Below are positions 112 to 43,929 of a stretch of 43,929 bases of DNA, in pieces. The translations under genes were made by a program, and so were the position numbers. The notes below the pieces were generated by a model. It was not told the origin of the DNA, ran no database searches, and was given only the letters and a program-made list of their open reading frames with translations. The stretch is from positions 1 to 43,929 of the forward strand of contig CALSCO010000855.1 of assembly GCA_943704415.1 (NCBI GenBank), read 5' to 3'. Position 1 is the stretch's first letter. Each line of letters starts with the position of its first letter. Source of the stretch: Parvularia atlantis (lineage: Eukaryota).

Positions 112-2781
112 TGCACAACTTCTCGTGCGTCAAGCCGGACCCGCACACCGGCGCGGCCGTGATGTCGCTTGGCGCACGGTGGCTAGCGTTCGCCACAACC
201 GAGCCGCTCAAGGCCGTGGGCGAGATGCCGCGGTACCGTGTCGCCCATGCGAGCGAACGCCGTGCCGCTGACGCGGTGCTGCACCGCTGCTCAGCCACGA
301 CGACGCCGAGGCCGACTCGTCCGAGAACGGCAACGAGGCGTCCATGGGCGCGACGCTGTATAACAAGGCCTGGGAGTACTCGGCGATGCTGGGCACGTGC
401 TCCCGTACGCGCTACAGCACGCCGCTGACTGCGCCGGCTGCGCAGGCGAGCGCGTGGCCAAGCAGGTGGTCAAGGTCATGTCGACGCCCGCGGCCCACGC
501 CGCGCCGCCACCGCCCGAGAGCAGCGACCACGGCACAGTGCGCCCAGGGCCACGCGTGCTCGCGTACGCACGCTCAGCCGGCCGTGACACGTGCGGGCGC
601 GCAGGTGTGGATCGTCGACTTTACCGTGGGTGCGGCGCAGGAGCCGGTGCGCGCGCATCCCAAGGTGGTCATGTTCCAGGCGAGCAAGCAGTCGCTCTCA
701 CGCGTCCAGTTCAACCCGAGCGGCACGCTGGTGCGCCTGCAGGCTGCGTGTGTGTGTGCGTATGTGTGCCTGCTGACGGCCGCGCCCGCCAGCTCGCGAC
801 CGCCACGCACAACGGCAACGACGTGGACGTGTTTGCCGTGGCGCCGTCGACGACGCAGAATGGCACCGCGCGGCACTTGTACCAGCTGCGCTGCGGCACG
901 TCCGACAGGTTGATCACGGTGCGCAGTGGTGGTTCGCAAGGCCCGCCCACGCGTGCGCTCATCGCGGGTGCAGGACATCTCATTCAGCCACGGCAGCCGG
1001 TACGTCGCGGCCACCTCGGCCAACGGCACCACGCACGTCTTTGCGATCAACCCGATGGGCGGCCCGGCCACGATCGACACGCACACGGCGCGCGCCCTCA
1101 CGGTAGCTCCGCGCCCGCCGGCCGAGCGGTTCAAGGTGCGCCGCTTCGCCGTTGCGTGCCCACTCACACGGGCGCGCGCAGGAGCCTCTCGTCCTCGACG
1201 CGACACTTCGCGTCAAGCAGACGCCGCCGCCTGCAGCCGACATGGTCGCCGCGCCGAGCACGCCGCCGATGTCCAGCGCGGCGGCGCAGCACCTGACGCA
1301 CACGATGGCCTTCGCCGGCTTCGAGATGGAGCGGTCGCTGTTTGCGCCGACGCCGAGGGCAGACGCGAGCAGCAGCGGCGGCGACCTGGCCGGCGCGCCG
1401 AGCGAGCAGCTGTTCCAGGGCCTGCTCACGTTCTCGCCCACGGGCATGCTGCAGTATCACGAGCTCTGTGCAGCGGTGCGCCAGCAGCCAGCGCAGCGGT
1501 GACCGTTGACGGCCGCTGCAGGTGTACAAGGACGCGGACGCAAAGAAGCCGCCGTCGCTGAGCGCGACGTACGAGAACGTGCTCGAGTGGCACGTCGACC
1601 GCATGATGGACTGGAACCCGGTGTTCACCGCGTGCGACGTGGTGCGCCCGACCCGGTGAACGCCTTTCGCTACGCAGCTCACGTGCGACACGGCAGCTTT
1701 GGCCTGCCATTGCGAACCGTCGCGTGCCCGACCGCAACCGCGCCGCGCGGTGGAAGGTGTGCGGACAGCCGTGCGCCGGCGCTTGCCCCAACTGACGGCC
1801 GCACCTGGCAGGACAACATCGAAATCCAGACGCACGCCATGCCGGAGCCGCCCATCTGGCGCGGGCCGCAGTTCTCGTTCCACACGTTTGACAGTGCGTG
1901 CAGGCCCGGCGACGTGGCACTCCTGACCCGCCGCGCGTGCGCAGCACAAAGCACGACCGATGCCGTAATCGACGCCGTAGACGAGGACAGCGACGACAGT
2001 GTGTGCGGCGGGCGCGGCGTGTGTGAGCGTCCAGGCTGACACTGCGCGCGACAACAGAGCGCCCTCCGGGGCGAGCGCCCACGCGCACGGTGCACGTTCC
2101 CAACCAGCCGCCGCAGCCGCGGTAGGGTGGGCATGGCGCGACTGGCGCGCCTGATGCGGTGTCGTTTTCGTGCGTGCGCAGGACCGCAACGGGGCCGGCC
2201 GACGTCGACGGCGCCGTGCTGCCCGTGACGCTCGACGGCATGCAGACGCGCCTGGCGTCGTCGCGGCGTGCGTGCGGTGCGCGCTCCTTGCAGCCCTCGA
2301 GTGACGCGCCCGCCCGCCCGCGCAGCCCTGTTTGGCGAGAGCGACATCAACTTTGACGAGGGCGCGGAGATGCCGCAGTCCAACATGAAGTCGCACGCCG
2401 AGCCGCACGACGCGGACGAGTTCTACTCGGACGCGCAGACGTCGCACATCGTGCGTGCACTTGCGCGCACGCGTGCTCTCTTGCTCATGCTCACGACCGC
2501 CTGTCTGCCGCAGTCGGTCGGCATGGCCGTGAGCATGAGCGGCCAGGACGTGTCGCCGATCGACAGCCCGAGCATGTTTGCGCGGTGCGCGTGGGCAGCG
2601 TGCGGCCCAGCGCGGTGCTGACGGACGGCGCTCCAGGCCCGACCCGCCCGCGTACAGCGAGGCGGACGAGGACGGCCAGCTGGTCGAGATGCACGACGCG
2701 CACGACGCCCCCGCCGTCTACGTCTCGCCTGACGGTGACAACGAGCTCGATGCGCCCGGCATGTCGGTGTACCGCGGCTGA
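112..2781 (+). CDS. BCAS3: BCAS3-like WD40/PROPPIN-related protein; multi-exon, 5'-truncated
   Basis: Spliced exons give SLGARWLAFA, SRVQFNPSGTL..LATATHNGNDVDVF, HLYQLRCG, DISFSHGSRYVAATSANGTTHVFAINPMGG and the BCAS3-domain motif WQDNIEIQTHAMPEPPIWRGPQFSFHTF. Stop TGA 2779-2781. Confidence 0.85.
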
Positions 2782-2942
2782 GCCGGCTCGGGCGGGTCGG
2801 TGTGTGAGTATTTGCCATGTTCATCTCCCGGTGGAATTTCTGGCTCACAAGTGCGGGGACAGCGGTCAAGCAGGTCAAGCTGGGTAGGATGCACAAACAG
2901 GCCCGTCACAGTCGGGCCACTGGCAGGCGCGGCGCTCGCCGA

Positions 2943-3504
2943 TCAGCGGCTCATCGGGGCCGCCGCGCCGTAGGCCGGTTGCACCGTCGCGCTGCCGTAC
3001 GCGAGCTTGATCGACTTGGCCGGCACGATGACCTTGCGCATCAGGCACTGGTTCGCGATGACGCCGCAGTAGTGGCAGCACAGCAGGAACGAGACGAACG
3101 AGCTCATGGTCGACGTGACGCCCTGGCGGCCAAAGAGGATGGCCTGGACGCCGACGGCGTCCGACGTGTAGAGCGTGCAGTCGACCGAGCAGTAGCACGA
3201 GGAGCACTGGAGAAACGAGCAGCACTGAGGCGCTGTCGCACGCGCGGTCAACGTTTCATGTTTGTGTCACCGCGCCTGTCGCGGCGAACGCACCAAACTG
3301 CACCAGGAGCGGCTCGCCGGTGTACGCGGCGGCGATGATCGCGATGGCGTCGTCGTCGAGCTGGACGAGCACGCCGTTGGTCGACCAGACGATCTTGGCC
3401 GGCTCCGGGTTCCAGAAGCCCGCGTGCTCGTGCGGCGTGCAGCGGCCAATGTTGAGCCGCGTTTGCGGGTCGAGGACGACGAGGGCTGCAGCGGGCGTAC
3501 ACAT
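2943..3504 (-). CDS. hypothetical Cys-rich protein (~165 aa, 2 exons)
   Basis: ATG at 3504 (MCTPAAALVVLDPQ..LLVQF). A GTGCG..TTGAC..ACAG intron joins in frame to APQCCSFLQCSSCYCSVDC..LLCCHYCG..PMSR*. Coding-like codon usage. Confidence 0.6.
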
Positions 3505-3672
3505 CTTGCAGGGCGACGGTTCCTGGCTGGCGGTGGCCGCGGAAGCCTGTCTTCGACGAAACGTGTAACATGTCCAGTATTCCGAGAGCAGAGTACTAAC
3601 CGCTCTGTACACCGGCGCTGCTCGGATCGGCCACTGACGCGCGCTTCCCTGCCCTGTCCAACCAGGCCCCAC

Positions 3673-3720
3673 CAGGCCCGCCCGCTTGCCCGCCTGCCCG
3701 CCTGCCCGCCTGCCCGCCCC
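3673..3720. repeat. short tandem (GCCCGCCT)n repeat in divergent intergenic region
   Basis: About 5 imperfect 8-mer copies just upstream of the ATG at 3731. Confidence 0.7.
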
Positions 3721-3730
3721 TAGCACCGCG

Positions 3731-6370
3731 ATGCCTATCTACAGCTCGCCGCGCCGCGACGTCGCCATCCCCGCGACCGACCTGTACTCGTTCCTGCTAC
3801 AGCAGCCGCACAAGGCGCAGCTCGACGACAAGGTCGCGTCGGTCGACGGCCTGACGGGCGAGTCGTACACGTTCGCGCAGCTGCGCCAGCGCACCGACCA
3901 GCTCGCGGCGGGCCTAGCCCAGCTCGGCCTGCGCCAGGGCGAGGTGCGTGCTGCGCGCTGCGCACACTGCTGCTGCGGCACCCGTTCACGCGCACCACCC
4001 AGGTGCTTGCCGTCTTCGCGCCCAACTGCGTCGAGTACGCCATCGCCGTCCTCGCCGTCGCGCGCCTGGGCGCATTCATCACGACCGGTGCGCCTGCAAG
4101 CCCCGCGCCGCACGCGCCGCCGTGCTCACGGACCCCGCAGCCAACCCAACCTACACGGCCGATGAGCTCAACTTCCAGCTGACCGACACGGGCGCCAAGG
4201 TGCGCGCGAGACGGCGGTGCCCCGATGCGGCGCTCAGCAGATGCGGGACGCGACGTGCAGTACCTCTTCACCCTCGCCGACCTGCTGCCGCTCACGTCCA
4301 AGGCCATTCAGGGCTCCAAGGTGCGCGGTGCGCGTGCTCGTTTACAGCACGCTCACGTGCGCGCTCGCGACGCCAGATCGTTGAGACGTTCGTCTTTGGC
4401 AACATCGGCACGGCCGGCGCGCGCACCGTGCGCTCGCTGTATCGGTGAGCCGGCCACGCGACCGTCACCGCGCGCTCACACAAACGTGGCGTTCTTAGCT
4501 ACACGCCGCCGCCGCCCATCCCCGCCTTCGACCCGAGCACGCACGAGCTCGTCATCCCGTACTCGTCCGGCACGACCGGTGCGCGAGCCGCGCCCCGGCG
4601 AGACGCGCGAGAGCTGACCACGCACCGACAGGCCGGCCAAAGGGCACGCAGCTGACGCACCGCAACCTCGTGCGCCGCGCAGCCCGTCGTGCGCTCGCAG
4701 CACGGCTTGCTGACTTTCCCGCGCACGTGCGTGCGGGGCGGCAGATCGCCAACCTGCTGCAGATGGAGGACTTTGAGTTCACGGCCAACGGGCTCGACCC
4801 GACGCGCGACACCCTGCTCTGCGTGCTGCCGCTGTGCGTGGCCGCGCGCCCGGCTCGCGTGCCGTCTCAGACCCCGCTGCCGCCGCGCGCAGCTTCCACA
4901 TCTACGGCATGGTCGTGATCATGCTCGGCGGCATCCACATGCGCCAGACGATCGTGTACATGGTGCGCTGCGCCGTCTGCGCCTCTGGCCGACCGCTCAC
5001 ACGACGTGCAGCCCAAGTTTGAGCTGCAACAGGTGCACGCGCCGAGGCCGCGCGCTGCTCGCGCACTGACGCAGGCCGCCGCAGTTTGTGCAGCTTATCG
5101 CCAGTTACCGCGTCACGATCGCGTACATTGTGCCGCCGATCGTCATCGGCCTGATCAAGGTGGCGCACGCGCGTATCGCGCGCATCACAGCCGGACGCTC
5201 ACGCAGCGCGCAGTCCGGCATCGCAAGCAAGTTTGACCTGTCCTCGCTGCGCATGGCCTTCTCGGGTGCGGCGCCGCTGTCGGCCGAGGTGCGGCGCGGG
5301 CGGCGCGTGTGTGTGATCACGAACGCTGACTGCGGCGCGCCAGACTGAGGCGGCGTTCAAGACGGCGCCGGGCCTGGCCAAGGTGGTGCTGAAGCAGGGC
5401 TACGGGTGCGCGCACGTGCACGAACGCTCGTCGGTGCTGCCACTCACCGGCCCGCGCAGCATGACCGAGCTGTCGCCGCTGTCGCACCTGAGCCCGACCG
5501 GTCGCATCAAGACGGGTGCATTGCTGCGTGCGGCGGAACGCTGCCTTGCCTGTCTTACCCTCGCGCCAGGCTCGATCGGGCAGCTGGTGCCCAACTGCCA
5601 AGCGCGCATCGTCGACCCCGAGACGGGCAAGGACGTCCCCAAGGGCGGCGAGGGCGTGCGTGGCCCGCAAGTGCCACGTGTAAGGCGTCCACGGTCTCAC
5701 GCAGTACCGCAGGAGCTGCTTGTGCGCGGGCCAAACGTGATGAAGGGCTACCTCAACAACCCGAAGGCCACCGCCGACACGATCGACAAGGACGGCTGGC
5801 TGCATACGGGTGCGCAACGGGCGCACGCAAGGTCCTGTGCTGAGGCCGCGTTTTCGCAGGCGACATCGTGCGCGCCGACGAGGACGGGTACTTTTACGTC
5901 ACAGACCGGTGCGCAATCGCACGCGTTGCGGCGCCCGGGCGCAACTCACGGGCGCCGCGCACAGCCTCAAGGAGCTCATCAAGTTCAAGGGTCTGCAGGT
6001 CGCGCCGGCCGAGCTCGAGGGCGTCCTGCTCTCGCACCCGTCCGTGCAGGACTGCGCCGTGATCCCGCAGCCCGACGCCGACGCGGGCGAGGTCCCGCGC
6101 GCGTACGTCGTGCTCAACCCGGGCGTGGCCGCGACCGCCACCACGGCGAGCGACATCGCGACCTTTGTCGAGGGCAAAGTCGCGCCGCACAAGGCACGCG
6201 CCGCGCCACCTGTCCCGAGCCATCTGCACTCACGCCCGCGCCCCGTCTGCCCACAGAAACTGCGCGGCGGCATCGAGTTCATCGACGTTATCCCCAAGTC
6301 CGCCTCGGGCAAGATCCTCCGCCGCACGCTCAAGGCCAAGAACGAGGAGCGTCTCAAGGCGCGCCTGTGA
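3731..6370 (+). CDS. 4-coumarate-CoA ligase/luciferase-like acyl-CoA synthetase (ANL family) with PTS1
   Basis: [13 protein letters not shown]-loop, [69 protein letters not shown]. Ends KARL*. Confidence 0.93.
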
Positions 6371-18158: not shown

Positions 18159-19743
18159 TCAAGGCTTCTTCGCGAAGAGGTAGTGCGAGACGCCCCACTC
18201 GTCCTTGTGAAAGTTCCACATCTCGGCGCTGCACACCCGGTGAGCGGCCGGTGGAGCGGTGCGACAAAAAGACGACGCACCAGGCCAGGAAGAAGATGCG
18301 CCAGCGCGCGAGCCACATCGTCGCCTTGTCCGGGCCGTACGTGTCGCCCTGGTCGCGCGCGGCGTGAGCAGCGGCGGGCAGCGTGCTCGCGCGCGCGCGC
18401 GCGCACCATGATCTTGAGCACGGCCTTCGTGTGCTTGTCCGTGTTTTGCAGCCAGTGCTCGGCCGTGCGGCCTGCGTCGCGCGCCAGCGGTGAGCGGCTG
18501 CCGCACGACCGCGAGCGCGCGCGCACACGCACCGTAGTGGCTGCCCTCGACGAACCACTTGTTGACAATCGTCACGTGGTCCTGCGCGGGCCGGGCGTCA
18601 GGGAGGCCAGACACGCGCGCGCACGCCGCACACCTGGAAGTACAGCAGGAGGTCGTCCGAGGGCATTGTGCCGCCCGTGAAGAAGTACTTGGCGATCCAG
18701 CTGGCCTCCTCGCCCGCGTCAAAGTCGTAGGCGTACTGGCGCGGCGGGCGCGTGAGCCGCGCAGACGCAGCGGCGCAGGGCACAAGCGCACACCTTGGGG
18801 TGCGTGAAGATGTGGATGAAGAGCATGCCATCGTCCTTGAGCCACGACGAGACCTTGGCCAGCAGCTTCTGGTAGTTTTTCATGTGCTCGAACATCTCGA
18901 TCGACATGACGCGGTCAAACCTGCGCGGCGGGTGAGCGGGCCGCGCGAGACCCCGCTCGCGTGCGCACGCACGCACTTCTTGGGCTCGAGCTGCGCGTCG
19001 TTGATGTCCTTCGTAATGATCGTCAGGTTCCTGAAGCCCTTGTCGGCCGCGACCTTCATGATGTGCTCGCGCTGCGTGGCCGAGTGCGAGAGGCCGGTGA
19101 TGCGCGAGTTGGGGTACTTCTGCGCTCGCTCGCACGGGCCGCGTGAGCGAACACACGCCGCACGGCTCGTGCACGCGCGCCGCACCTCGGCCAGGTACAG
19201 CGAGAGCGAGCCCCAGCCGCAGCCGAGGTCGAGCACGTCGAGGCCGTCGCGAAGCTGCGCGCGCTCGCAGTACAGCGCGAGCATGTTCTCCTCGGCCGTG
19301 TCGAGCGAGTCGTTCGCTGCGCACGTACGCGTGCACGCTCAGCGCGGGCCACCACATGCGCGTGCGCGCGCGCCGCACCGGTCTTGTAGTAGCAGCCCGA
19401 GTACTTGAGGCGCTTGCCGAGGCAGAGCTTGTAGAACTCGGTCGGGACCTCGTAGTGCTGCTCCTTTGACTCGGACGTGTTGATGGCGATCGGCAGCGTC
19501 TTGAGCTTCTGCACGTAGGCGACCTTGGCCGCGGCCTCGGCCTGTGCGTGGGCGGGCAGGCGGGTAAGCGAGCGAGCGCTGTGGCTGGCCCAGGCCGCGC
19601 AGCCGACCTCGAACGAGCCCTTCTTGCACCCGTTGAGTACGTCCTGCAGGAACTTGCGCATGGCGAGGCGCACGAGCGTGTCCGGCACGACGTTCATGTC
19701 GACCAGGGTGTAGATCTGCTGCATGACGGCCGCGTACGCCATG
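18159..19743 (-). CDS. CMAS-family SAM methyltransferase, coclaurine N-methyltransferase-like subtype
   Basis: PIAINT..EQHYEVPTEFY..LGKRLKYSGCYY, LDLGCGWGSLSLY, FDRVMSIEMFEHMKNY, YFFTGGTMPSDDLL, WRIFFLA, EWGVSHYLF. Confidence 0.92.
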
Positions 19744-19925: not shown

Positions 19926-21891
19926 ATGGACGTCGTCTCGACCCTCGCCGTCGCCGTGCGCACGGGATTCTCGCTCACGGCGCTCGGTGTGCACAGCCTC
20001 CCGCGTCAGCGCGCGCGATCTGCTCACGCTGTGGGGCAACGCGCTCAGGCCAGCACGTCTTCCTGGGGCTGCTGGCCAACATCGCCGAGGGCCACATCAA
20101 GGTCGTGCTGCCCGACAAGAGCGAGTGCGTGCGCCCAGCGCGGGCGGGATGCGCGCCGCCTGACGCCGCCCTTCCCCCCCTGGATTCGCAGGAGGACGTT
20201 TGGCCCGGCCGACGCCAAGCTCCGCGCGACGCTCACCGTGCACGAGGCCGACTTCTGGGCGCGCCTGATCCGCAGCGCCGACCTCGTGCGTGATGGCCGC
20301 CTCGGGTGCGCGTGCGCGCGTGCTCACGCCGACCGCAGGGCTTCGCCGAGGCGTACATGGCGGGGGAGATCACGGTCGACAACCTGACGACACTGCTGAA
20401 GGCACGCCGTTGGCGCCCTTGCGACCACGCACGCGCGCATTCTGACCGCTCGGCTGGCGCACGCGTGCGCATAGATCTTCATCTTCAACCGCGAGCGCAT
20501 GGGCGGGCTCGACACCAACTACGCCTGGTTCGGCCACCTCGTCGACAAGGCACGGGCGCGCCCACCCGCCAGTCTCGTGCGCGCGCGCGCTGACACACAC
20601 GCGCAGATCTCGCACTGGCAGCAGGCCAACAGCCTTGGCCAGGCGCAGGACAACGTCGCGGCGCACTACGACCTGAGCAACGAGCTCTTCCAGGCGCGCA
20701 GGCGTTGCGCAGGGATCGCGGTAGCCTGCTGACGCCTCCGCGCGCGTGCACAGACCTTCCTCGACCCGACCATGTCGTACTCGTGCGCCATCTACCGCTC
20801 CGAGAAGGAGACGCTCGAGCAGGCGCAGATGAACAAGATTCGCACGATCATCGAGAAGGCCAAGGTCAAGAGCACCGACCACGTGCTCGAGATCGGCTCG
20901 GGCTGGGGCGCGCTGGCGATGGAGGCCGTGCGCATGACCGGCTGCCGCGTCACGTCCATCACGCTCAGCAAGGAGCAGAAGCAGGTACGCTTGCGCACGA
21001 ACGCGCGCGCACTCGTACTGACACCCGCGCGCAGCTCGCTGACGAGCGCATCGCCGCGGCTGGCCTCAGCGACCGCATCGAGATCAGGCTGATCGACTAC
21101 CGCCAAGTCGAGGGCCAGTTTGACAAGATCATCTCGGTCGAGATGGTCCGTGCGGCCGCACCGCCCTCGCGCATGAACGCTAACGGGGGCCACGCCACGC
21201 CCCGCAGATCGAGCAGGTCGGCCACGAGTTCCTCCCCGTCTACTTCAAGACGATCGAGCGCCTGCTCAAGCCGTCGGGCATCGCCGTGGTCCAGGTGCGG
21301 CCGCGCAGTGCCGCGCCTGCGACGCTGAGCCCCGTCGCCCAGGCAATCACCATGCCCGACTTCCGCTACGACGCGTACCTCAAGAGCTGCGACTTTATCC
21401 AGAAGCACATCTTCCCGGGCACGGTGCGTGTGTGTGCGTGCGCCGCTGTGTCTGAGCCGCGCGCGCGGCGTGCCAGGTCTGCCCGTCGATCACCGCCATG
21501 ATCAACGCCCTTACGGGGCACACGCAGCTGGTCGTGCACGACCTCGAGAACATCGGCGCGCACTACGCACGGTGCGCCGCCCTCCCGTGCTTGCCCGCCC
21601 GCCAGCGTGCCGAGCGTCGCCGTTGCGCGCCCAGCACGCTCCGAACATGGAACGACAACCTCAAGGCCAACGCCAAGAAGGTCGCGCAGCTCGGCTTTGA
21701 CGACAAATTCATGCGCACGTGGGACTACTACTTCTGCTACTGCGAGGTGCGCGCGCGGTGGCCCGTATCCGCGGCGTGCTGACGGCTTGGCCGGCGCGCA
21801 GGCGGGCTTCGCGACGCGCACGCTCGGCGACGTGCACCTCGTCCTGTCGCGGACGGGCAACCTAGCCATGTCTGAAGGCGTGCCGGAATGA
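19926..21891 (+). CDS. cfa: cyclopropane-fatty-acyl-phospholipid synthase-like methyltransferase
   Basis: GFAEAYMAGE, NVAAHYDLSNELF, LDPTMSYSCA, VLEIGSGWG, SITLSKEQ, FDKIISVEM, DFIQKHIFPG, RTWDYYFCYCEAGF. Confidence 0.93.
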
Positions 21892-22016: not shown

Positions 22017-23178
22017 TCAAGCGGTGGCGGTGCGGCCGCGCCACTCGTCAAACAGCTTCTGCAGCTGGTCGACGGGGTCGGCCGCGCCCGCGGGCTGGAA
22101 CGGCACGTTCAGGTCGAGGTAATAGCGGCCGCGCGCGCAGCCGTTGGTATCGCAGCTGCGGCGCCGGTTCAGCGACACGGCACAGACCGCTGCCGGCACG
22201 TAGCACGCACCGCTCGTCGTTGATGTCGGTGGCGCGCGCCGCGATGGTAAAGCCGATGTGGCCGCACTTGGCGAAGCTCGCGGGCGGGCAGCCGCAGCTG
22301 GTCGGGCGCGACTGCGAGCACGAGCAGCGGCCGTCGCCGCCGCCCTCGCGCGCCACCTGATTGCGCGGTGGTGAGCCGTCTAGCGCGCGCGCAACGCGTC
22401 CGGCCGCGCACCTGCAGGCCGTCCATCAGCAGCTGCGGAATGTCGCCGTCCATGCGGCGGATCAGCGCCTCGACTGCGCTGACGACGCACGGGCCCGTGA
22501 GTATGTTGCCCTGGACGGCGTACGTGAGGTTGCCGATCTGGCCCGTCACGCCGCCGGCCCAGTCCTGCGCAACGCGGCGGCCCGCTGAGCAACGGCCACC
22601 CGCGTGCGGCAGCGACCAGCGGCGCACCGACGTCGACGTGCCGGTGAAGGTCATCGCGCGGCCCAGCGTGTCAACCAGGCCGTACTGGCGCGACTGGTGG
22701 CCCGACAGGCGCGCCAGGTCCGTGAGGATGTCGTCCGGGTCCTTGCCGGCCTCGAGGCCCGCCTGCATCGTCTGGCGGCGCGTCGCATCCGAGTCGACCG
22801 ACGACTGCGCCGGGTCAATTGTCAGCGCACACGCTCGCTGCCGTTTGCGGCGCGCACGCACCTGGCTGCAGCCGACGCCCTTGCCGATGACGATCACCGG
22901 CAGTAGCGCCTTGAGGTCTGTGCGCGTGCATACGTGTCAGCCGCCTGCACGCAACGCGTCCCCGCGCGCCCGACGTGCCGTAGGTGGTCACACACGTGAC
23001 CGCGGCGACGCCGACCTCCTTCGTGGCCGTGTTGACGATCTGCGGCCGTGCTCAGCCCCGAACGCGTCACGGCCTCCGCAGTGCATCGTGAACGCACGAC
23101 GATGCTCCACGTCGCGCGGGCGGGCGCGGCGGCCAGCGCCGCCAGCAGGACGATCAGCACAATGACAGGCTTCATCAT
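22017..23178 (-). CDS. secreted DUF1028-family (Ntn-hydrolase-like) protein
   Basis: Signal peptide ending APARA, then [69 protein letters not shown]. Confidence 0.85.
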
Positions 23179-23354: not shown

Positions 23355-24812
23355 CTACACCTTGGCGAGCTTGGCGAGCTTCGCGCCGTTGCCGCCGTTG
23401 GTGCCGTTGGAGCCGTTGGTGCTGGCGTGTGCGGCTGCCAGTCTGGCTGGCTGGGCCGGCGCAGGCGCATCGTGTTGATGTGTCGCGGCCCGGTTCTGGT
23501 GTCGCTTGCCCTTGACGTGCTCGTTGAGCTGTCCAACAGAGACAGCCGTCTGGCAGACCGGGCACATGACGACACCGCTGCTCGTGCCAGCGCTGCTGCT
23601 CGTGCTGACGCTGACGCTGCCCGTGCTGCCCGTGCTGCTGGTGCTACTAGTGCTGTTACGGCGGGCGCTCGTCGCGGCATGCTCGCGCCGCCGGCGCTGG
23701 TGCGGCTTGTGCTGCTCTGCTGGCCTCGCCGGCTCGAGCGTCGACGGCATGGTGCTGTAGTGCACCGGAGGCCGCAAGCCGTGCGGTGCGTGCCCGTAGT
23801 CGACCTGCTCGGGCCGGTCGTAGCCGCCGTAGAGCGGCGGGACGTGCCGCTGGTCGGGCGGGCCGTGCTGCGCGTAGTACGGCTCGGGCCAGCCAGCGGG
23901 GGCGTGCCAGGCGGGCGGCGCGTAGCCGAGCTGCTCCAGGCGGCTCGGATGGATGTGACCGTGCCGGTCGGGCGACGGGTAGGCTGGCTGCCCGTGCGTG
24001 TGCTCGTGCGGTACGAAGCCGTGCTCATGCGGTGCATAGCCGTGCTCGTGCCCGTGCTCGTGCAGCGTGTAGCCGTGCCCGTATGGTGCGTAGCCGTAGC
24101 CCGGGTCCGCGTGCCACGCCTCGCCGTAGTGCTGCTGCTGCGGCGGCGGCGCGTACCCGTACATCGGTGGCGCGTGGCGAGCCTGCGACCACGGCGGCGG
24201 CGCATGGCCGTGCCTGGTCGCGTTCGCAAACGCCCGCGCAGACGGCGGCGGCGGTGGCGGCAGCGGCGGCGCGGCATAGCCCATGTTTGCGAGCCGGCTC
24301 GGGTGGATAAAGCCGTGGCGGTCCGGCGACGGCGCAGGCCCCGGCCCTGCGTGCTGCTCGCGCTGCTGCTCACGCCGCTTGGCCATGCGTTCCAGCTCGC
24401 GGTGGTGCACCGTCACGTCGAGGCCGGCGCGCGTCCCGACGAGGTACTCGCGCAGCAGCTCCACGAACGAGACCGAGCGGTGCATGCCGCTCTTGCACCC
24501 GACAAACACGTGCGCCTCGGTCGCGTACGAGCCGCGCAAGCCGTCCAGCAGCGCGTTGACGCGCGCGCACAGCTCGTCGAACCGCGCGCGCGCCTGCGGC
24601 ACGTCCATGAGCGCCGCGCGCAGGCGCTGGTCCAGGCCGGTGATGAACTTCTGGCTGCGCAGGAACTCGCGCGGGTGCGGCACGTCGCGCACGTCCAGCA
24701 CGAGCGTCGCAGGCGCATGCTGCGCCTGCTCGGCCACGGCGCGGCTCTCCGGGTGCTTGAGGCCGAGCGTGGCGAGGTGCACGCGCAGCTGCGGCCACGC
24801 GGCGGGCTCCAT
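23355..24812 (-). CDS. intronless protein: RapZ C-terminal-like domain, His/Pro/Tyr/Gly low-complexity region, U1/matrin-type C2H2 zinc finger
   Basis: [47 protein letters not shown] fits the RapZ-C consensus (SFG.K..DvR..TGlD..GC.GG.HRSV..HR). [14 protein letters not shown] fits a U1-like finger. Confidence 0.8.
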
Positions 24813-24852
24813 CCGCCGAAGCGCGCTGTGAGCAGCCGGTACGACGCAGATA

Positions 24853-26333
24853 ATGTTCCCGCCGCTGTTGAACAACATCGTGCTGCGCGCGGCCCGGCGC
24901 GAGCCGACCGAGCGCGTGCCCGTGTGGATCATGCGCCAGGCCGGGCGCTACCTGCCCGAGTTCCTCGACGTGCGCAAGACCGCCGACTTCTTCACGATGT
25001 GCCGCACGCCCGCCCTCGCTGCCGAGGTCACGCTGCAGCCCGTGCGCCGCTTCGCGCTCGACGCCGCGATCATCTTCAGCGACATCCTCGTCGTGCCGCA
25101 GGCGCTCGGGATGGAGGCGCGCGTGGCCGCACGCTGCGCCCGCCCCCGATCGGCTCATGCCCGCGCCCGATGCAGGTCCAGATGCTGCCCGGCTCGGGGC
25201 CGCACTTCCCGGCGCCCCTGCGCGGCCCAGAGGACATCGACCGCCTCAATGCGGCCGTGGACGTCGACCGCGAGCTCGGCTACGTGTTCGAGGTGCGACG
25301 GCGCACGGCCTGCACCGGGCGTCGCTGCAGCCCATCGGCGGTCCCGCAGGCGATCACGCTCACGCGGCACATGCTCGAGGGCCGCGTGCCGCTCCTCGGC
25401 TTCTGCGGCGCGCCCTGGACGCTGATGGCGTACATGATTGAGGGCGGCGGCAGCAAGTCGTTCAGCAAGTGTGCGTGCGCGTGGCCTGCATGTGTGCGCG
25501 GCTGAGCCGCCGCCGCAGCCAAGGCGTGGCTCTACCGCGAGAAGGCCGCCAGCCACCGCCTGCTCTCGATGCTGACCGACGTGTCCGTCCGGTACCTGGT
25601 CGGGCAGGTCCGGGCCGGGGCGCAGGTGCGTGCGCGCACACATATACACGCGCGCACGCACGCAAGCACCGACCGGCTGCTGCAGATGCTGCAGGTGTTT
25701 GACTCGCACGCGGGCGAGCTCGCACCGGACATCTTTGACGAATTTGTGCTGCCGTACCTGCGCCGCATCAGCCGCGAGGTGACGGCCGGTGTGCGCGCCG
25801 CCGGCCTGGACCCCGTGCCGCTGGTGGTGTTTGCCAAGGGTTCGTGCGGTGGCCGTGTGCACAGCACGCGCATGCAGCTGAACGGCGGCCTGTCAGGCGC
25901 GCACTACGCGCTCGAGCAGCTGGCCGACAGCGGCTACGACGTCGTGGGGCTTGACTGGACAATCCCGCCGCGGATCGCGCTCGCGCAGGTGCGCGCGTCC
26001 GTTGCCGCGTCGATCAAGCGCGCCGACTGACACGACGCGCGACGGCAACCGCAGACGGGCGGCAAGGTTGCGCTGCAGGGCAACCTCGACCCGTGCGTGC
26101 TGTACGCCTCGGAAGACGAGGTGCGGCGGCAAGTGCGGCGGTTGCTGAGCGAGTGCGCCTCGCGCCCGCGTGCGCAGCGTGCACAACGTGACGCGCGGCG
26201 CAGGAGCTGCACGCACGGCTGGATTGCCAACCTCGGCCACGGTATGAACCCGGACCACGACCCGGCCATGGTTGCGGTCTACCTCAAGGCCGTGGCCGAC
26301 ATCAGCACCGAGCTGAACGCGGCTGTGGTGTGA
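24853..26333 (+). CDS. hemE: uroporphyrinogen decarboxylase
   Basis: [71 protein letters not shown]. Confidence 0.97.
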
Positions 26334-39900: not shown

Positions 39901-42449
39901 CACACTTGCAGATACGCTGGATCGGCTTGATGAGGAAGCTCTCGAGCGTGAGGCCCTTGCACTCGGGCTTCGCGGCGCACTCCTGCGTGCCGCGTTAGCG
40001 CACGCGCACGCACTCTATCGGACGCACCTTGAGAAACTTGGCAAACGAGTCCTTCTCCATCTTACGCTTGAGCAGCTGCACGGCCTCGGGGTGGTTGCAG
40101 CAGTACTCGGTGTAGTGCGGGAAGTAGTCCATCTGCCGCAGCGCTGGTTCAGCTACCGCGGGCCGCCGTGGCCGCCGCCGCACGCACCGCGGCCAGGAAC
40201 GCGCCGCTGATGCGCTCGATCATCGGCCAGTGCGACGTGTCGTCCATCACACGCTCGAGCTCGCCCAGGAAGAACTGGGTCGCGCGTGAGCCGCACAGTC
40301 TCCCGCGCGCGGACGGCGCCGTCCGCACCTCGTTCACGCCGAGGAGCGTCTCAATGTTGGAGAAGAGCGACTCGATGTTCTTGGCCTTGAGCACCTGCTG
40401 CTCCGTCATGCCCTTCATAAACACCTGCGCAGCGGGCGATCAGCGCGCGCCCGGGCGTGCCGGCAGCGCGCGCGCACCTCGATGATCAGCTTCAAGTTCT
40501 CGACGTAGTCCAGCTCGGTCGTGTAGATCTCGTATGCGGCCTGCTGGAAGTGCTTCTCCTCCTTCGTGAGCGAGTTGAGCAGCGCCGCCTTTTCCTCCGG
40601 GTTCTCGATGCGGTCGAACCAGTACTTGATGAACGGCTTGGTCGGTGGCGGCGCCATCTGTTGCGCTCCCTCAGCCGCTGGCGGCGTTGCCGCCGCGGTC
40701 GCTGCGCACCATAACACCGTCGGCGGACCCGGAGCCTGACTGCGTCCCGAGCATGACCGTGATCGGCCGCGACGCATCCGTCCTCGACTGCAGCGCGGCT
40801 CAGCGCCAGGTGCGCGCCACCACACCGCCACCAGACCTTCTCGATCGTCTGCTCAAAGTCCAACGCAAAGCTGTCGTCGCGCTTGTCCTTGTACTTGACG
40901 TACCATGACCGGTACCCGTCCTGCGCCGTGGACACGTCACTCTGGCTGCTCTCGGCGTCGCTGGTGGGCGTGCCGGCGGCGTCGGGCAGCGGCTGCTCCT
41001 TGTTCTGCGCGCGCACAGTGTGAGCACGCACGCCGAGCAGCCGCAAATGGAGCGCACCGCGTCGCCAAACATCTTTTGGAGCCACTTGCGCGACTTGGTC
41101 CCGGCCGCGCCCTCGGGCGGGCCATCGCCAGCGCTAGCGTCGGCCTCGTTGGCGATCACGGCCTTGAGCTCGCTCTGGTTCATGCTGCGCGAGCGACCTG
41201 CCACGTCGCTGTGAGCGCGTGCCCGCGGTGCGAGAGCGGCCGCACACGTTTCTGCGTCGGCGTGCGGTTCGGCGACACGTTGGCACCGGCTGCTGCGGCC
41301 GTCGTGGACGCGGAGGACGACGACGAGACCGACGCCAGCGACGCCGACGAGCGGTCGCCCTCGCCAAAGTCGGCGCTGTTGGTGTGGGGCAGCTCGCCCG
41401 CGGTGCGCTTCATCTGCAGCATCTTGGACAGGGCGAAGGTTGAGCCCTTCTGCGCCTTGATCTTCTTATCTGCAGTCGGCTGTGAGCGTGCGTGCGCGCA
41501 CGACCGCGCACCGCTCGCACCGTCCAGCGCGTCTCCGGAAGGCAGGCTCGTGGCCAGCACTGCCCCGCCGTCGTCGATGCCGAGCGTCTGCGCGAGCGCG
41601 CACGCGTCAGCCGCGGCGTCCGCAGCGGCGCGCAAGGTGACCTGCTTGCTCTTGGACGAGCGGAACCACGAGCGCTTCTGCTGCTGCTGCTGCAGCAGGG
41701 TGCGCGTCAGCCGCGTGTGCTCAGTGGACCGCCGTGCGTGCTCACCGAGTCGCTCCCGCCCGCCTGCTCCTCCATGTTGTCGCCCGAGATGCTGCGGCGG
41801 ACGGGCGCGCCGGCGTCGTCGGCCGCCGCGGCCGCCTGCTCAGCCGCCACCGCCGCCACCGCGGCCGCCGCGGCCGCCTTGTCCTCGTCGGTCACACGGC
41901 TGCTTGTCCGCTGCGGGCGCCCGGGGGGTCAAACGTGCGTGCGCCATACGACGACGACGACGACGACGCCGCGACACGCCTTGAACAGCGAGAAACCGCT
42001 CTTGTGCCCGACCGACGACTTGCCGCTCTGCGCCGGCGCGGGCGCGTCCTGCGGCGCCTCGGCCGCTGCGGACGACGACGACGACGACGCGCTCCGCGGG
42101 ACGCTCGGCAGCGGCTCGCGCGGCCGTTGCTGGACGGCGCGGCTGAGCGGCCGCCCCCTCTCCGCGCCGCCGTACGCACCACGGCCTCGACGTACGCCTG
42201 CGGCACGAAGCCCGCCGCGCCCTCGCGCTGCACCGGCCTGATGTAGACCCAGCCCTCGGACGGCGCGGGCAGGCCGGCGGCGGCGCAGTCGATGACCTCT
42301 ACCAGCTGCGTGCACGCGCGCGCGCACACGTGAGCCACCCGGCGGGACGCAGGCCCGGGCGCGCGCGCCCCATCAACCTCGCCCTCGACCAGGTCGGCCT
42401 CGTCCCACTCTGAAGGCGCGAAGTCGTACAACGCGCGGGCGCGTGTCAT
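36913..42449 (-). CDS. SH3-DH-PH Rho guanine nucleotide exchange factor with coiled-coil and Pro-rich C-terminus
   Basis: SH3 ARALYDF..EGWV..GFVPQAYVE. DH EIYTTELDYVENL..LFSNIE..YTEYCCNHP..LTLESFLIKPIQRICKYPLLIRELL. PH-like region follows, then EAEEAR coiled coil. Stop TAA 36913-36915 after the last intron. Confidence 0.88.
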
Positions 42450-42467
42450 CGTGGCCAACTCAAGCCT

Positions 42468-43075
42468 GATCCAAACAGTTGAGATTCCCTCACTAACATT
42501 CGCAGCAACTATACGTATACGTCGTGTATTGACATGAAACTCACTGCGGCGGCCGCCGCTGCCGCCGAAGCGCAAAAAGGACGCCACCGGACGCCGGCGA
42601 CTACGAGACCAAGCACTCGACCGTCGTGATGTCGGTGCACCAGGCGCTGGAGAAGGCCGCTCGTCACTTCACCGGACACTCGTTCACATCATCGTGATGG
42701 CAGGCCGCCTTCCTGCTGAGTTCGTGCGGCAGGTCGACGCCAACGCCCGCCCTCGGCGTCCTCGCGTCGTGGTTCATGGCTTCCAAGCACTGCAAAAGTG
42801 TCTGTAACTGGACGTGGAACCGCGACGTCAACGGGGCGCGCAACATCGGCACGCTCTTCAACTTGAAGGCGCACATGCCAGTGGCCGGCCTCGAGTTTTT
42901 GCGGCAAGGAACACGCATTGCACAACCGCGTGTCCGACCCGCATCGGGCTCTCTATACCTCTGAAACACGGTGCTCGCAGTTTGCTGACTCGAACGACTG
43001 TTGACTCGTTGTGAAATGAATGCTGAGTGAACTGAACCGGCGAATGTTAGTGAGGGCATCTCAACTGCTTCGATC
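42468..43075 (+). mobile_element. ~600-bp non-autonomous TIR element carrying a Fanzor/TnpB remnant
   Basis: 42468-42503 GATCCAAACAGTTGAGATTCCCTCACTAACATTCGC matches the reverse complement of 43040-43075 at 33/36. The ends are less GC-rich than the flanks, no introns are evident, and an internal RuvC-III motif is present. Confidence 0.85.
42534..42964 (+). pseudogene. Fanzor (eukaryotic TnpB-like) remnant, internally deleted and frameshifted
   Basis: VVVHG(frameshift)KHCKSVCNWTWNRDVNGARNIGTLF..LEFLR. This is the second half of the Zn ribbon plus the RuvC-III RD.N.A.NI motif. RuvC-I/II are absent, and upstream fragments lie in other frames. Confidence 0.78.
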
Positions 43076-43095
43076 TTGAGCGTACTCATCACGCA
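42965..43095 (+). ncRNA. candidate omegaRNA scaffold plus flanking guide
   Basis: Lies between the remnant's stop and the right end, as in TnpB/Fanzor loci, and has short nested complementary segments. There is no expression evidence. Confidence 0.35.
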
Positions 43096-43158
43096 CACAC
43101 ATCACACCACACACGCTCGTCTGCCGCCACGCGGGCGACCACCCCACCGCGACGCCAC

Positions 43159-43895
43159 TCACGCCTTGTGCTCGACAAAGTGCGTCACGAACTTGCCGCC
43201 GTCCCACTTGGCGATGGCCTGCTCCGGCAGCGGCGTCTCGCGCATGTCGTCGTCCTCGTTCTTGCCCGGCACGAGCACGTTGAGCTCGCTCGACTTGGCG
43301 TAGAGCACCTCGGTCTCGAGTGAGTCCTTGGATAGGTACAGCTGGAAGCCGTCGGTCTTGTCGATGTTGACCGTGGGCGCCTTGCCGAGGATCTGCGCCT
43401 TGCACGACTTGGAGTTGACGACGTCGAGCGACGAGATGAGCGAATCGAAGACGATGTCGGTCTTGACGCAGCCGTCTGGCGCACGCGCGCACGTGCGTGT
43501 GAGCGAGCGCAGCCGACCGCGGGGTGCGCCCGGACGCGCACCGAGCGTGATCTGGTTGATCTTGCCCTTGATGATGACGACCGAGTTGACGCAGCCAAAG
43601 ATGTAGACCGTCTGGTTCTGAGCCGTGTTGTCGATAACGAGGCTCTTGTTGTCCTTCTGGTACTCGACCACCCACTTGTTGTTCTCGAGCGCAAACTTGG
43701 GCGTCGCGTTGGCCTTGGTGCCCGGGGCGGACGCCTTGGACGATGCGATCACGTCGGCTGCTGTGCAGTCAGCACACAGTGCCCCCACGCACGCGCACGG
43801 GCGCGCACCGTTGACTTCCTTCTCGACGACCGTCGCGCCCGCACGCAGTGCCGGGTTCTTGTGCGTCTTTTGGTCGTCGCTAACCTTCTTGAGGC
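43159..43895 (-). CDS. CAP: adenylyl cyclase-associated protein, C-terminal exons (5'-truncated)
   Basis: GLKKVSDDQKTHKNPALR, KWVVEYQ, VYIFGC..IKGKINQITL, PTVNIDKTDG.QLYLSKDSL..KSSELNV..E.PLPEQ. Confidence 0.96.
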
Positions 43896-43929
43896 CTGCG
43901 TGAGCGTGTGTCAGCACAGGCGCCCCCCC

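What the first reader, a model, noticed from the sequence alone, without database searches (positions are those of the whole stretch)
42534..42964. Fanzor/TnpB RNA-guided nuclease remnant in a protist genome
Seen: a short ORF reads KHCKSVCNWTWNRDVNGARNIGTLF, and a 1-nt frameshift near 42781-42784 joins it to RPRVVVHG. Upstream fragments (YETKHSTVVMSVHQALE; RTLVHIIVMAGRL) sit in other frames. Known: [H/R]GL..C.x2-5.C...WNRD.N[AG]A.NI is the Zn-ribbon/RuvC-III end of TnpB and Fanzor, and the WNRD form is typical of Fanzor1. Inference: this is an internally deleted copy of a Fanzor family that may have intact members elsewhere in this genome, i.e. a possibly undescribed eukaryotic OMEGA system.
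Basis: partly seen in the sequence, partly recalled or inferred. Interest (0 to 1): 0.88.

Follow-up and report, generated by a model that had tools for sequence, protein, structure and literature searches.

The report
Gutted Fanzor1 transposon, possibly spliced guide
This is a 0.6-kb piece of jumping DNA with inverted ends that keeps only the start and the tail of a Fanzor1 gene (a eukaryotic RNA-guided DNA cutter) and is likely dead; its family has full-length relatives in environmental data and may possibly make its guide RNA by splicing.

Summary
The locus is a ~608-bp element with 36-nt terminal inverted repeats (42468-42503 / 43040-43075). It holds the first ~76 codons of a Fanzor1 gene, broken by three frameshifts and fused in frame at 42781/2 to the last ~35 codons. 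About 524 codons are gone, including RuvC-I and RuvC-II. Full-length relatives (570-696 aa, from Logan, JGI and ENA only) carry DPG, the shifted E, a zinc finger and RD. A model of one of them matches SpuFz1, PpFz1 and GtFz1 far better than Fanzor2 or TnpB. A covarying omega-RNA-like scaffold follows the gene, but this copy lacks half of one stem. Other copies with different flanks lie in the best-holding run; an intact copy in this organism was not shown. Verdict: a likely dead, non-autonomous copy from an unannotated Fanzor1 subfamily, a known kind of system. One lead goes further. A spliced-RNA contig leaves the element exactly at a GT that matches donor-like motifs in three related families, whose ends are YAG next to the target duplication. 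That suggests a spliced guide RNA (about 20%); viral relatives argue against it.

The parts
42468..42503 (.). Left terminal inverted repeat (36 nt core; may reach 42459 if a 4-nt insertion is allowed)
   Evidence: I1, 92%; blastn E 7e-9; X1 record 2 (2449 nt, another flank) begins matching at 42468; outer extension seen
42559..42585 (+). Fanzor1 N-terminus, PPKRKK (NLS-like, inferred); CTG stands where relatives have ATG
   Evidence: relatives begin MPPKRK or MAPKRK (P0021-P0023); also matches L004
42587..42685 (+). First strand and helix of Fanzor1 (ETKHSTVVMSVHQALEKAA ~ P0021 residues 18-36); frameshifted against the preceding segment
   Evidence: (profile E 2.8e-4; blastx to P0021 E 4e-9); secondary structure E16-26, H27-38 in the P0020 model
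42712..42750 (+). REC helix fragment RQVDANAR (P0020 RQVDANAR), in another frame after a short deletion; ends at a 1-nt insertion near 42750
   Evidence: tables 4 and 8 (records 4 and 14 are 10 nt longer over 42644-42751; 42750 left out in one contig)
42752..42781 (+). LGVLASWFM (P0021 residues 68-76) up to the in-frame internal deletion of ~524 codons (removes TDG, RuvC-I DPG, RuvC-II E and the first zinc-finger Cys pair)
   Evidence: X7 record 15 has a loose end before 42781 that encodes the undeleted linker (table 7)
42782..42877 (+). C-terminal zinc-finger half and RuvC-III (HC..C, WNRD; Asp codon 42824-42826), with private small insertions after TLF
   Evidence: (96% identity over 26 aa to L004)
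42895..42970 (+). Predicted omega-RNA scaffold: a covarying hairpin, a second 6-7 bp hairpin whose 3' strand (11 nt) is deleted in this copy, and a TAC strand
   Evidence: (86% to L001/L004 over 56 nt); another X1 copy keeps the missing strand (loose end at 42952)
42971..43080 (+). Subterminal region, poorly conserved between families; starts GTGC and is a candidate intron (inferred)
   Evidence: X7 record 15 leaves the window exactly after 42970
43040..43075 (.). Right terminal inverted repeat
42130..42449 (-). Neighbour (not part of the element): 5' exons of an SH3/RhoGEF gene; its ATG lies 18 nt outside the left repeat
   Evidence: searches (SH3_9; RhoGEF at 39998-40219), spliced joints
43159..43929 (-). 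Neighbour (not part of the element): 3' part of the cyclase-associated protein (CAP) gene, converging on the right end
   Evidence: (CAP_C E 3.5e-56), spliced joints

Best explanation
The locus is an internally deleted copy of a Fanzor1 gene between terminal inverted repeats, and it is likely a dead non-autonomous DNA transposon that was moved by a transposase encoded elsewhere. Shown: inverted ends, the 5' and 3' ends of the gene, the in-frame loss of ~524 codons with two of three catalytic residues, three frameshifts, and 11 nt missing from a conserved hairpin. Inferred: full-length members of the family work like SpuFz1. The protein would bind an omega-RNA made from the element's 3' end, use the flank beyond the right end as guide, and cut the empty site left by excision so that repair copies the element back. 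Deleted copies like this one would arise when that repair is interrupted. This copy probably makes neither protein nor a usable guide scaffold.
For: Inverted repeats of 36 nt, 92%. Segment map onto P0021/P0020. In alignment A2 of 15 relatives, D-P-G, the E six residues before the zinc finger, three zinc-finger Cys and RD are invariant; these are the Fanzor fingerprints in PMC10711439 (Results parts 1-2 of 3 read). The AlphaFold model of P0020 (pLDDT 80) matches SpuFz at E 2.7e-16 (TMq 0.56), PpFz at 6e-15 and GtFz at 5e-12, against 1.9e-3 for mimivirus Fanzor2 and 5.5e-4 to 1.1e-3 for TnpB. Relatives sit in TIR elements: family C has a left end in L012 and matching right ends in L020/L024/L025, flanked by TTAA/TTAN; L003 has TA-flanked ends. 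The scaffold has 3 of 15 pairs with compensatory change and 100% of cells paired, against at most 58% in slid controls. X1 records 2 (2449 nt) and 3 (2888 nt) share parts of the element but run on into other sequence, so other loci exist. Eukaryotic context: four GT-AG joints in the neighbouring genes.
Against: No target-site duplication could be found for this copy; the best candidates are asymmetric 4-5-mers. No transposase family was found in 108 long ORFs of the window at E<=1e-4 (254 frames of >=110 aa existed and shorter exons were not scanned). The window's repeat (<=7 mismatches) was not found in any of the 76 loci then held, so the carrier superfamily is unassigned. No intact gene was read in this organism. 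The covariation rests on 5 sequences from about 3 lineages, and the structure was derived from them. The local fold z-score for the window scaffold is only -2.0, and +1.0 with the full 3' region. X1 may be the sample the window came from, and its summed depth is not a copy number.
Confidence: 0.8

Rival explanations
1. In this Fanzor1 subfamily the guide RNA is made by spliceosomal splicing. An intron starts right after the scaffold and ends at the last bases of the transposon. Splicing would remove the subterminal and inverted-repeat sequence, join the scaffold to the target duplication and flank, and give a compact ~75-nt scaffold with a 4-6 bp terminal stem.
For: X7 record 15 (6393 nt; the run has spliced host joints) follows the window over 42781-42970 and leaves exactly before GT at 42971. 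That is the only GGTGC, and 1 of 13 GT, in 225 nt. The homologous site is G|GTATG in family A, G|GTACG in B, B2 and C, and T|GTACG in L003. The motif occurs in 3-7% of dinucleotide shuffles per family. Of 11 host intron starts picked by eye from flanking genes of those loci, 6 begin GTAC or GTAT, while 3 of 4 spliced introns of the window's host begin GTGCG, like this element's GTGCT. Right ends of A, B, B2 and C are YAG followed by 1-2 G and the duplication. In B, B2 and C, joining donor to acceptor is predicted to pair a TAAC strand with GTTA from the terminus plus duplication: 0.8-3.6 expected pairs against <=0.12 unspliced. The region between the two sites is much less conserved than the scaffold in A-B, A-window and B-window (z 0.4-2.1 against 6.7-9.9).
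Against: Giant-virus Fanzor1 elements have the same order (TATAC strand, AGGTATG, terminal AG, GTATA). There the GGT pairs with a downstream ACC with compensatory change, so structure alone can explain the motif. Terminal YAG may simply be part of the inverted repeat. Branch-like motifs lie 84-148 nt from the acceptor, too far for typical use. In family A the unspliced hairpin is stronger than the spliced one (4.3 against 1.0 expected pairs). For the window copy the acceptor would be GAG and no terminal stem is predicted. The letters after the X7 junction start CG like the window's end but do not fit an NTAN duplication or pair with TAC. It is one contig, and a truncated genomic copy could give the same picture. 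For A-C and B-C the 'intron' aligns better than the scaffold (z 2.4 and 5.1 against 0.7). Xu 2024 (section 5 read) reports omega-RNAs of 75-150 nt with an unconstrained region beyond SL1, so a long unspliced loop is tolerated. The stem half of my shuffle test was too lax to add anything.
Confidence: 0.2
2. The copy is a 'ghost'-like guide donor: it has lost the protein but still makes an omega-RNA, with the CAP-side flank as guide, for full-length Fanzor1 acting in trans.
For: Size (~0.6 kb), inverted ends and a retained 3' scaffold resemble ghost Spu-1 elements, whose RNAs support SpuFz1 editing (PMC10432273 passages). The first hairpin is intact and carries a compensatory change.
Against: The second hairpin, likely the protein-bound 7-bp SL1 of solved Fz1 RNAs (assignment inferred), has lost its 3' strand here, while another X1 copy keeps it. 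The copy also carries several private indels, a sign of decay.
Confidence: 0.1
3. A Fanzor fragment (about 42555-42970) was captured or inserted into an unrelated miniature inverted-repeat element, so the repeats do not belong to the Fanzor family.
For: X1 record 3 matches only from 42555 and X7 record 15 only to 42970. X1 loose ends at 42506 and 42511 show that some repeat copies continue with other sequence. The repeat is absent from related loci.
Against: The window's 3' region aligns loosely with the subterminal region of family A out to the end, and both are followed by GTAC (z 2.1). The window repeat shares TCTCAACTG with family C's repeat. Fanzor1 capture by TIR elements is the normal case (PMC3627910 passages).
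Confidence: 0.15

Closest known systems
Fanzor1 of Spizellomyces punctatus (SpuFz1, Spu-1 elements) with its partial and ghost loci
   Same: Best structural match of a full-length relative; single gene between ~30-nt inverted repeats; no transposase in the element; partial and ~550-nt gene-less copies coexist (PMC10432273 passages).
   Different: Only 15-16% identity. Here the remnant keeps both gene ends. The scaffold lies 110-170 nt upstream of the right end in the window and families A-C, whereas Spu-1 has ~80 nt from stop to end. SL1-like hairpin broken in this copy.
Non-autonomous Fanzor1 TIR elements with TTAN duplications (SfAV/HVav-1 group) and Mariner-type Fanzor1 elements with TA duplications
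   Same: Related loci have CC...GG ends with TTAA/TTAN flanks (family C) or TA-flanked ends (L003) and encode Fanzor1 only (PMC3627910 passages; PMC10711439).
   Different: The window copy shows no duplication and its repeat differs. Membership of those named clades was not tested by a tree.
IStrons (group I intron plus IS605/IS607 TnpB)
   Same: Splicing and guide-RNA production share one RNA at a transposon end (review PMC13565253 passages; original preprint seen only in search listings).
   Different: IStrons are bacterial, self-splicing and remove the whole element, which competes with guide production. The idea here is a spliceosomal intron that removes only the right end and would create the guide. 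No group I intron match in Rfam.
Fanzor2 / IS607 TnpB
   Same: DPG and shifted-E active site (PMC10711439).
   Different: Much weaker fold match (E 1.9e-3), TDG-type motif and 570-700 aa size, TIR carrier, no serine recombinase seen.

Membership tests
Fanzor (Yoon 2023 fingerprints) | RuvC-I DPG motif | tested here: met
   Invariant in 15 of 15 rows of A2. Holds for the family; the window copy has lost it by deletion.
Fanzor (Yoon 2023 fingerprints) | RuvC-II Glu six residues before the zinc finger | tested here: met
   E585 and C592 of P0020 invariant in A2. Deleted in the window copy.
Fanzor | C4 zinc finger followed by RD (RuvC-III) | tested here: met
   Window keeps HC..C and WNRD. Relatives have three invariant Cys; the fourth is His in P0020, P0006, P0024 and L003.
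Fanzor1 | TDG motif in WED and enlarged REC; fold like SpuFz1/GtFz1/PpFz1 | tested here: met
   TDG at P0020 338 and P0021 331, TDS/TDA in two rows; Foldseek ranks 1-7 are Fanzor1. Tested on a full-length relative, not on the remnant.
Fanzor1 | Encoded in a eukaryotic (non-IS607) transposon | tested here: met
   36-nt inverted repeats in an intron-rich locus; TIR and duplications in relatives.
Fanzor1 | Monophyly with described Fanzor1 in a tree | not tested
Fanzor1 | Structured omega-RNA at the 3' end, expressed past the right end | tested here: inconclusive
   Covarying hairpins predicted; one stem broken in this copy; no small-RNA data.
Fanzor1 | RNA-guided DNA cleavage next to a TAM | not testable with these tools
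   Needs biochemistry on a full-length member.
Active full-length Fanzor1 gene (this copy) | Open frame with D-E-D triad | tested here: not met
   ~524 codons deleted, three frameshifts, CTG at the start position.
Cut-and-paste TIR superfamily (piggyBac-like TTAN, Mariner TA, others) | Characteristic target-site duplication and termini | tested here: inconclusive
   No symmetric duplication in this copy; relatives show TTAN, GTAC/CTAT or TA.
Ghost element (Saito 2023) | Inverted repeats and intact omega-RNA, no Fanzor gene | tested here: not met
   Gene ends are retained and the second hairpin is broken.
IStron | Group I intron and TnpA | tested here: not met
   Rfam gave one chance-level hit, E 0.28, not an intron; no transposase family.

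The most novel reading that the evidence does not exclude
This Fanzor1 clade builds its guide RNA with the host spliceosome: an intron holds the transposon's right end, and splicing joins the scaffold to the target duplication and flank. That frees the inverted repeat from RNA-folding constraints, lets one nuclease ride different transposon superfamilies, and puts guide production under splicing control.
Probability: 0.2. Interest if true: 0.85.

Novelty: new member of a known kind. Interest (0 to 1): 0.45.

Why it matters
As it stands, the locus points to an unannotated Fanzor1 subfamily of protists. All close relatives came from Logan, JGI or ENA, none from NCBI; names, where given, are 'hypothetical protein' or 'transposase'. 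It has candidate full-length proteins of 570-696 aa with an intact triad (for example P0021, P0022, P0009), a predicted scaffold and predictable target motifs, which are usable leads for compact genome-editing enzymes. That extends a known system. If the splicing lead holds, it would be a new way to make a guide RNA in eukaryotes and would answer how Fanzor1 reconciles transposase-binding ends with RNA structure across many carriers. It would also mean that scaffolds for such enzymes have to be designed from the spliced form.

Tried and rejected
The RPRVVVHG frameshift join was rejected. RTLVHIIVMAGRL was rejected as a conserved peptide. My early idea that the upstream part was transposase was rejected: it is the Fanzor N-terminus. 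X7 has no cover over 42975-43104, which is not counted as evidence. Summed X1 depth over most of the element (1400-5200, one bin 363) against ~172 on the flanks is not a copy number. Only one read-laying result was obtained, so the ends and duplications of other copies, and the catalytic core in this organism, stay open. P0002 alone found nothing in viral contigs. The repeat pattern found 0 viral contigs. The scaffold pattern gave 47 scattered viral hits that I did not examine and take as chance. Hexamer enrichment did not cleanly give host donor consensus: GTGCGC ranked 2 of 256 in the window, GTACGT 24 and GTATGC 172 of 256 in the JGI loci. The left end of family A was not found. PDB sequence search with P0001 gave only E>=0.15. 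The atlas placed P0021 near unnamed PF07282/DUF8286 clusters of giant viruses and eukaryotes (score 0.98, recognition 2280, below the tool's 2300 mark). The search of protein representatives never ran, and the atlas look-up of CAP did not complete, so the host lineage is not determined; RhoGEF and GPS domains only hint at an amorphean protist (inference). Earlier findings: none. Literature searches for spliced Fanzor guide RNA listed no such report among the rows shown; the library lacks most subscription papers, and no supplements were read.

Full report
Observation. The frame 42698-42964 contains SKHCKSVCNWTWNRDVNGARNIGTLF. It hits PF07282 at E 1.2e-4, below the curated cut-off, and NF040570 at E 0.045. 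The tail found two database proteins at 86% and 81% identity. Searches with these gave 12 near-length and 11 longer relatives, ten of them 570-696 aa. The neighbours are CAP and an SH3/RhoGEF gene, both spliced, in 70% GC DNA. The host is an intron-rich eukaryote; its lineage was not determined.

Anatomy. Between them the gene maps onto P0021/P0020 as follows: PPKRKK (42559-42585, with CTG where relatives have ATG); a frameshift; ETKHSTVVMSVHQALEKAA (42587-42685); a short deletion; RQVDANAR (to 42750); one extra base; LGVLASWFM (42752-42778); then, in the same frame, SKHC. So 42781/2 is an in-frame deletion of about 524 codons (P0021 residues 77-600) that removes TDG, RuvC-I, RuvC-II and half the zinc finger. 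RPRVVVHG is the wrong frame of LGVLASWFM. Run contigs agree: one lacks the base at 42750, two are 10 nt longer over 42644-42751, and one carries the undeleted linker upstream of 42781. A profile of 12 full-length relatives picks only these two window fragments out of 904 (E 1.5e-10 and 2.8e-4; next 0.61).

Family. D-P-G, the Glu six residues before the zinc finger, and RD are invariant in 15 of 15 aligned rows. These match the Fanzor fingerprints, and TDG the Fanzor1 mark, in PMC10711439 (Results parts 1-2 of 3 read). The model of P0020 (pLDDT 80) matches SpuFz, PpFz and GtFz at E 3e-16 to 5e-12, and Fanzor2 and TnpB only at about 1e-3. No tree with named Fanzors was built. Cluster members come from Logan, JGI and ENA only; the one NCBI hit is a distant algal protein at 25%.

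Other copies. No genome is held. In run X1, which may be the source sample, two long contigs share the left end or the 5' gene part and then run into other sequence, and many variant contigs cover the element. The family therefore has several loci. An intact gene in this organism was not read. In metagenome loci (27 found) related elements end sharply against variable flanks. Family A ends in CAGGG before GTAC (3 of 4 distinct sites) or CTAT; families B and C end in TAGG before TTAN; a family C left end mirrors its right end after TTAA; L003 has TA-flanked ends. This fits Fanzor1-only TIR elements as described in PMC3627910 (passages). The window copy shows no convincing duplication, and none of 108 long ORFs scanned carries a transposase family.

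RNA. Downstream of the coding tail, 42897-42952 is 86% identical to non-coding DNA of L001/L004. Five sequences fold into two hairpins with 3 of 15 pairs changed on both sides and all cells paired; the sample is small and related. The window copy lacks 11 nt, the 3' strand of the second hairpin, which another X1 copy keeps. By position and size that hairpin is likely SL1, the stem bound by all three solved Fz1 proteins (PMC11423790 section 5; the assignment is my inference). This copy is therefore probably dead as a gene and as a guide source, unlike the ghost loci of PMC10432273 (passages).

Mechanism. Shown: structure of the remnant, family identity of relatives, TIR carriers. Inferred from the known family (review PMC13565253, passages; PMC10530073, passages): full-length members cut the empty donor site with a guide taken from the right flank, which restores the element, while a transposase in trans moves it. 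Interrupted repair would give deleted copies such as this one and the inverted or chimeric copies seen in L004-L026. Confidence 0.8.

The splicing lead. X7, whose contigs show spliced host introns, has one 6.4-kb contig that follows the element to 42970 and leaves exactly before GT, the only GGTGC in 225 nt. Families A, B, B2 and C have G|GTAYG at the same place and YAG one or two bases before the duplication, 120-169 nt apart. Donors resemble each host's own introns. In B, B2 and C the joined RNA is predicted to close a terminal hairpin with the duplication. Against this: giant-virus Fanzor1 elements have the same motif order with GGT held in a covarying hairpin; the terminal AG may be dictated by the repeat; branch-like motifs are far from the acceptor; family A folds better unspliced; the window's acceptor would be GAG; the X7 letters after the junction do not fit a duplication; and conservation contrasts are mixed. 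I put this at 0.2. Searches listed no report of spliceosomal guide maturation in Fanzors; IStrons are the nearest idea and were seen only through a review and listings. Supplements were not read and could hold such data.

Verdict. A real, internally deleted, likely dead Fanzor1 TIR element from an unannotated protist subfamily: a new member of a known kind. Interest 0.45, raised above a plain relic by the candidate full-length enzymes and the testable spliced-guide hypothesis (0.85 if true).

Noticed in passing
L004 9461-10520; also L005-L007, L012-L018, L020, L024-L026: Many metagenomic copies carry internal inversions plus deletions, and L004 is a chimera: its RuvC-I stretch is 97% identical to family B (L023) inside a family A element. 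This suggests template switching during break repair.
   Followed up: partly
window 42559-42561; L004 near 10513 (minus strand): Near-cognate codons stand at the expected start: CTG in the window and ACG in L004, before PPKRKK, where P0021-P0023 have Met. Decay or non-AUG initiation; not resolved.
   Followed up: no
window 42447-42468: The left repeat lies 18 nt upstream of the ATG of the SH3/RhoGEF gene, so the element sits on or replaces that gene's promoter or 5' UTR; an X7 contig of the gene ends at 42456.
   Followed up: no
L029-L074, 3' ends: A large AT-rich Fanzor1 element family in giant-virus contigs ends in GTGTATA or GTGTAAA, with an upstream TATAC or TTTAC strand that changes along with it and an AGGT/ACCT or GGGT/ACCC hairpin (read by eye in 17 of 49 loci).
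   Followed up: partly
L003 289-2354: A complete-looking Fanzor1 element: 655-codon frame with DPG/E/RD, TA-flanked inverted ends, GTACGT after a 3' hairpin and CAG at the terminus.
   Followed up: partly
window 23358-24947 (-) and 22172-22936 (-): A RapZ C-terminal domain (PF22740, E 1.4e-15) and DUF1028 (E 1.7e-10), families I recall as mostly bacterial, lie in this eukaryotic window.
   Followed up: no
window 18722-19693 (-) and 20594-21325 (+): Two methyltransferase frames with cyclopropane-synthase (CMAS) hits on opposite strands.
   Followed up: no
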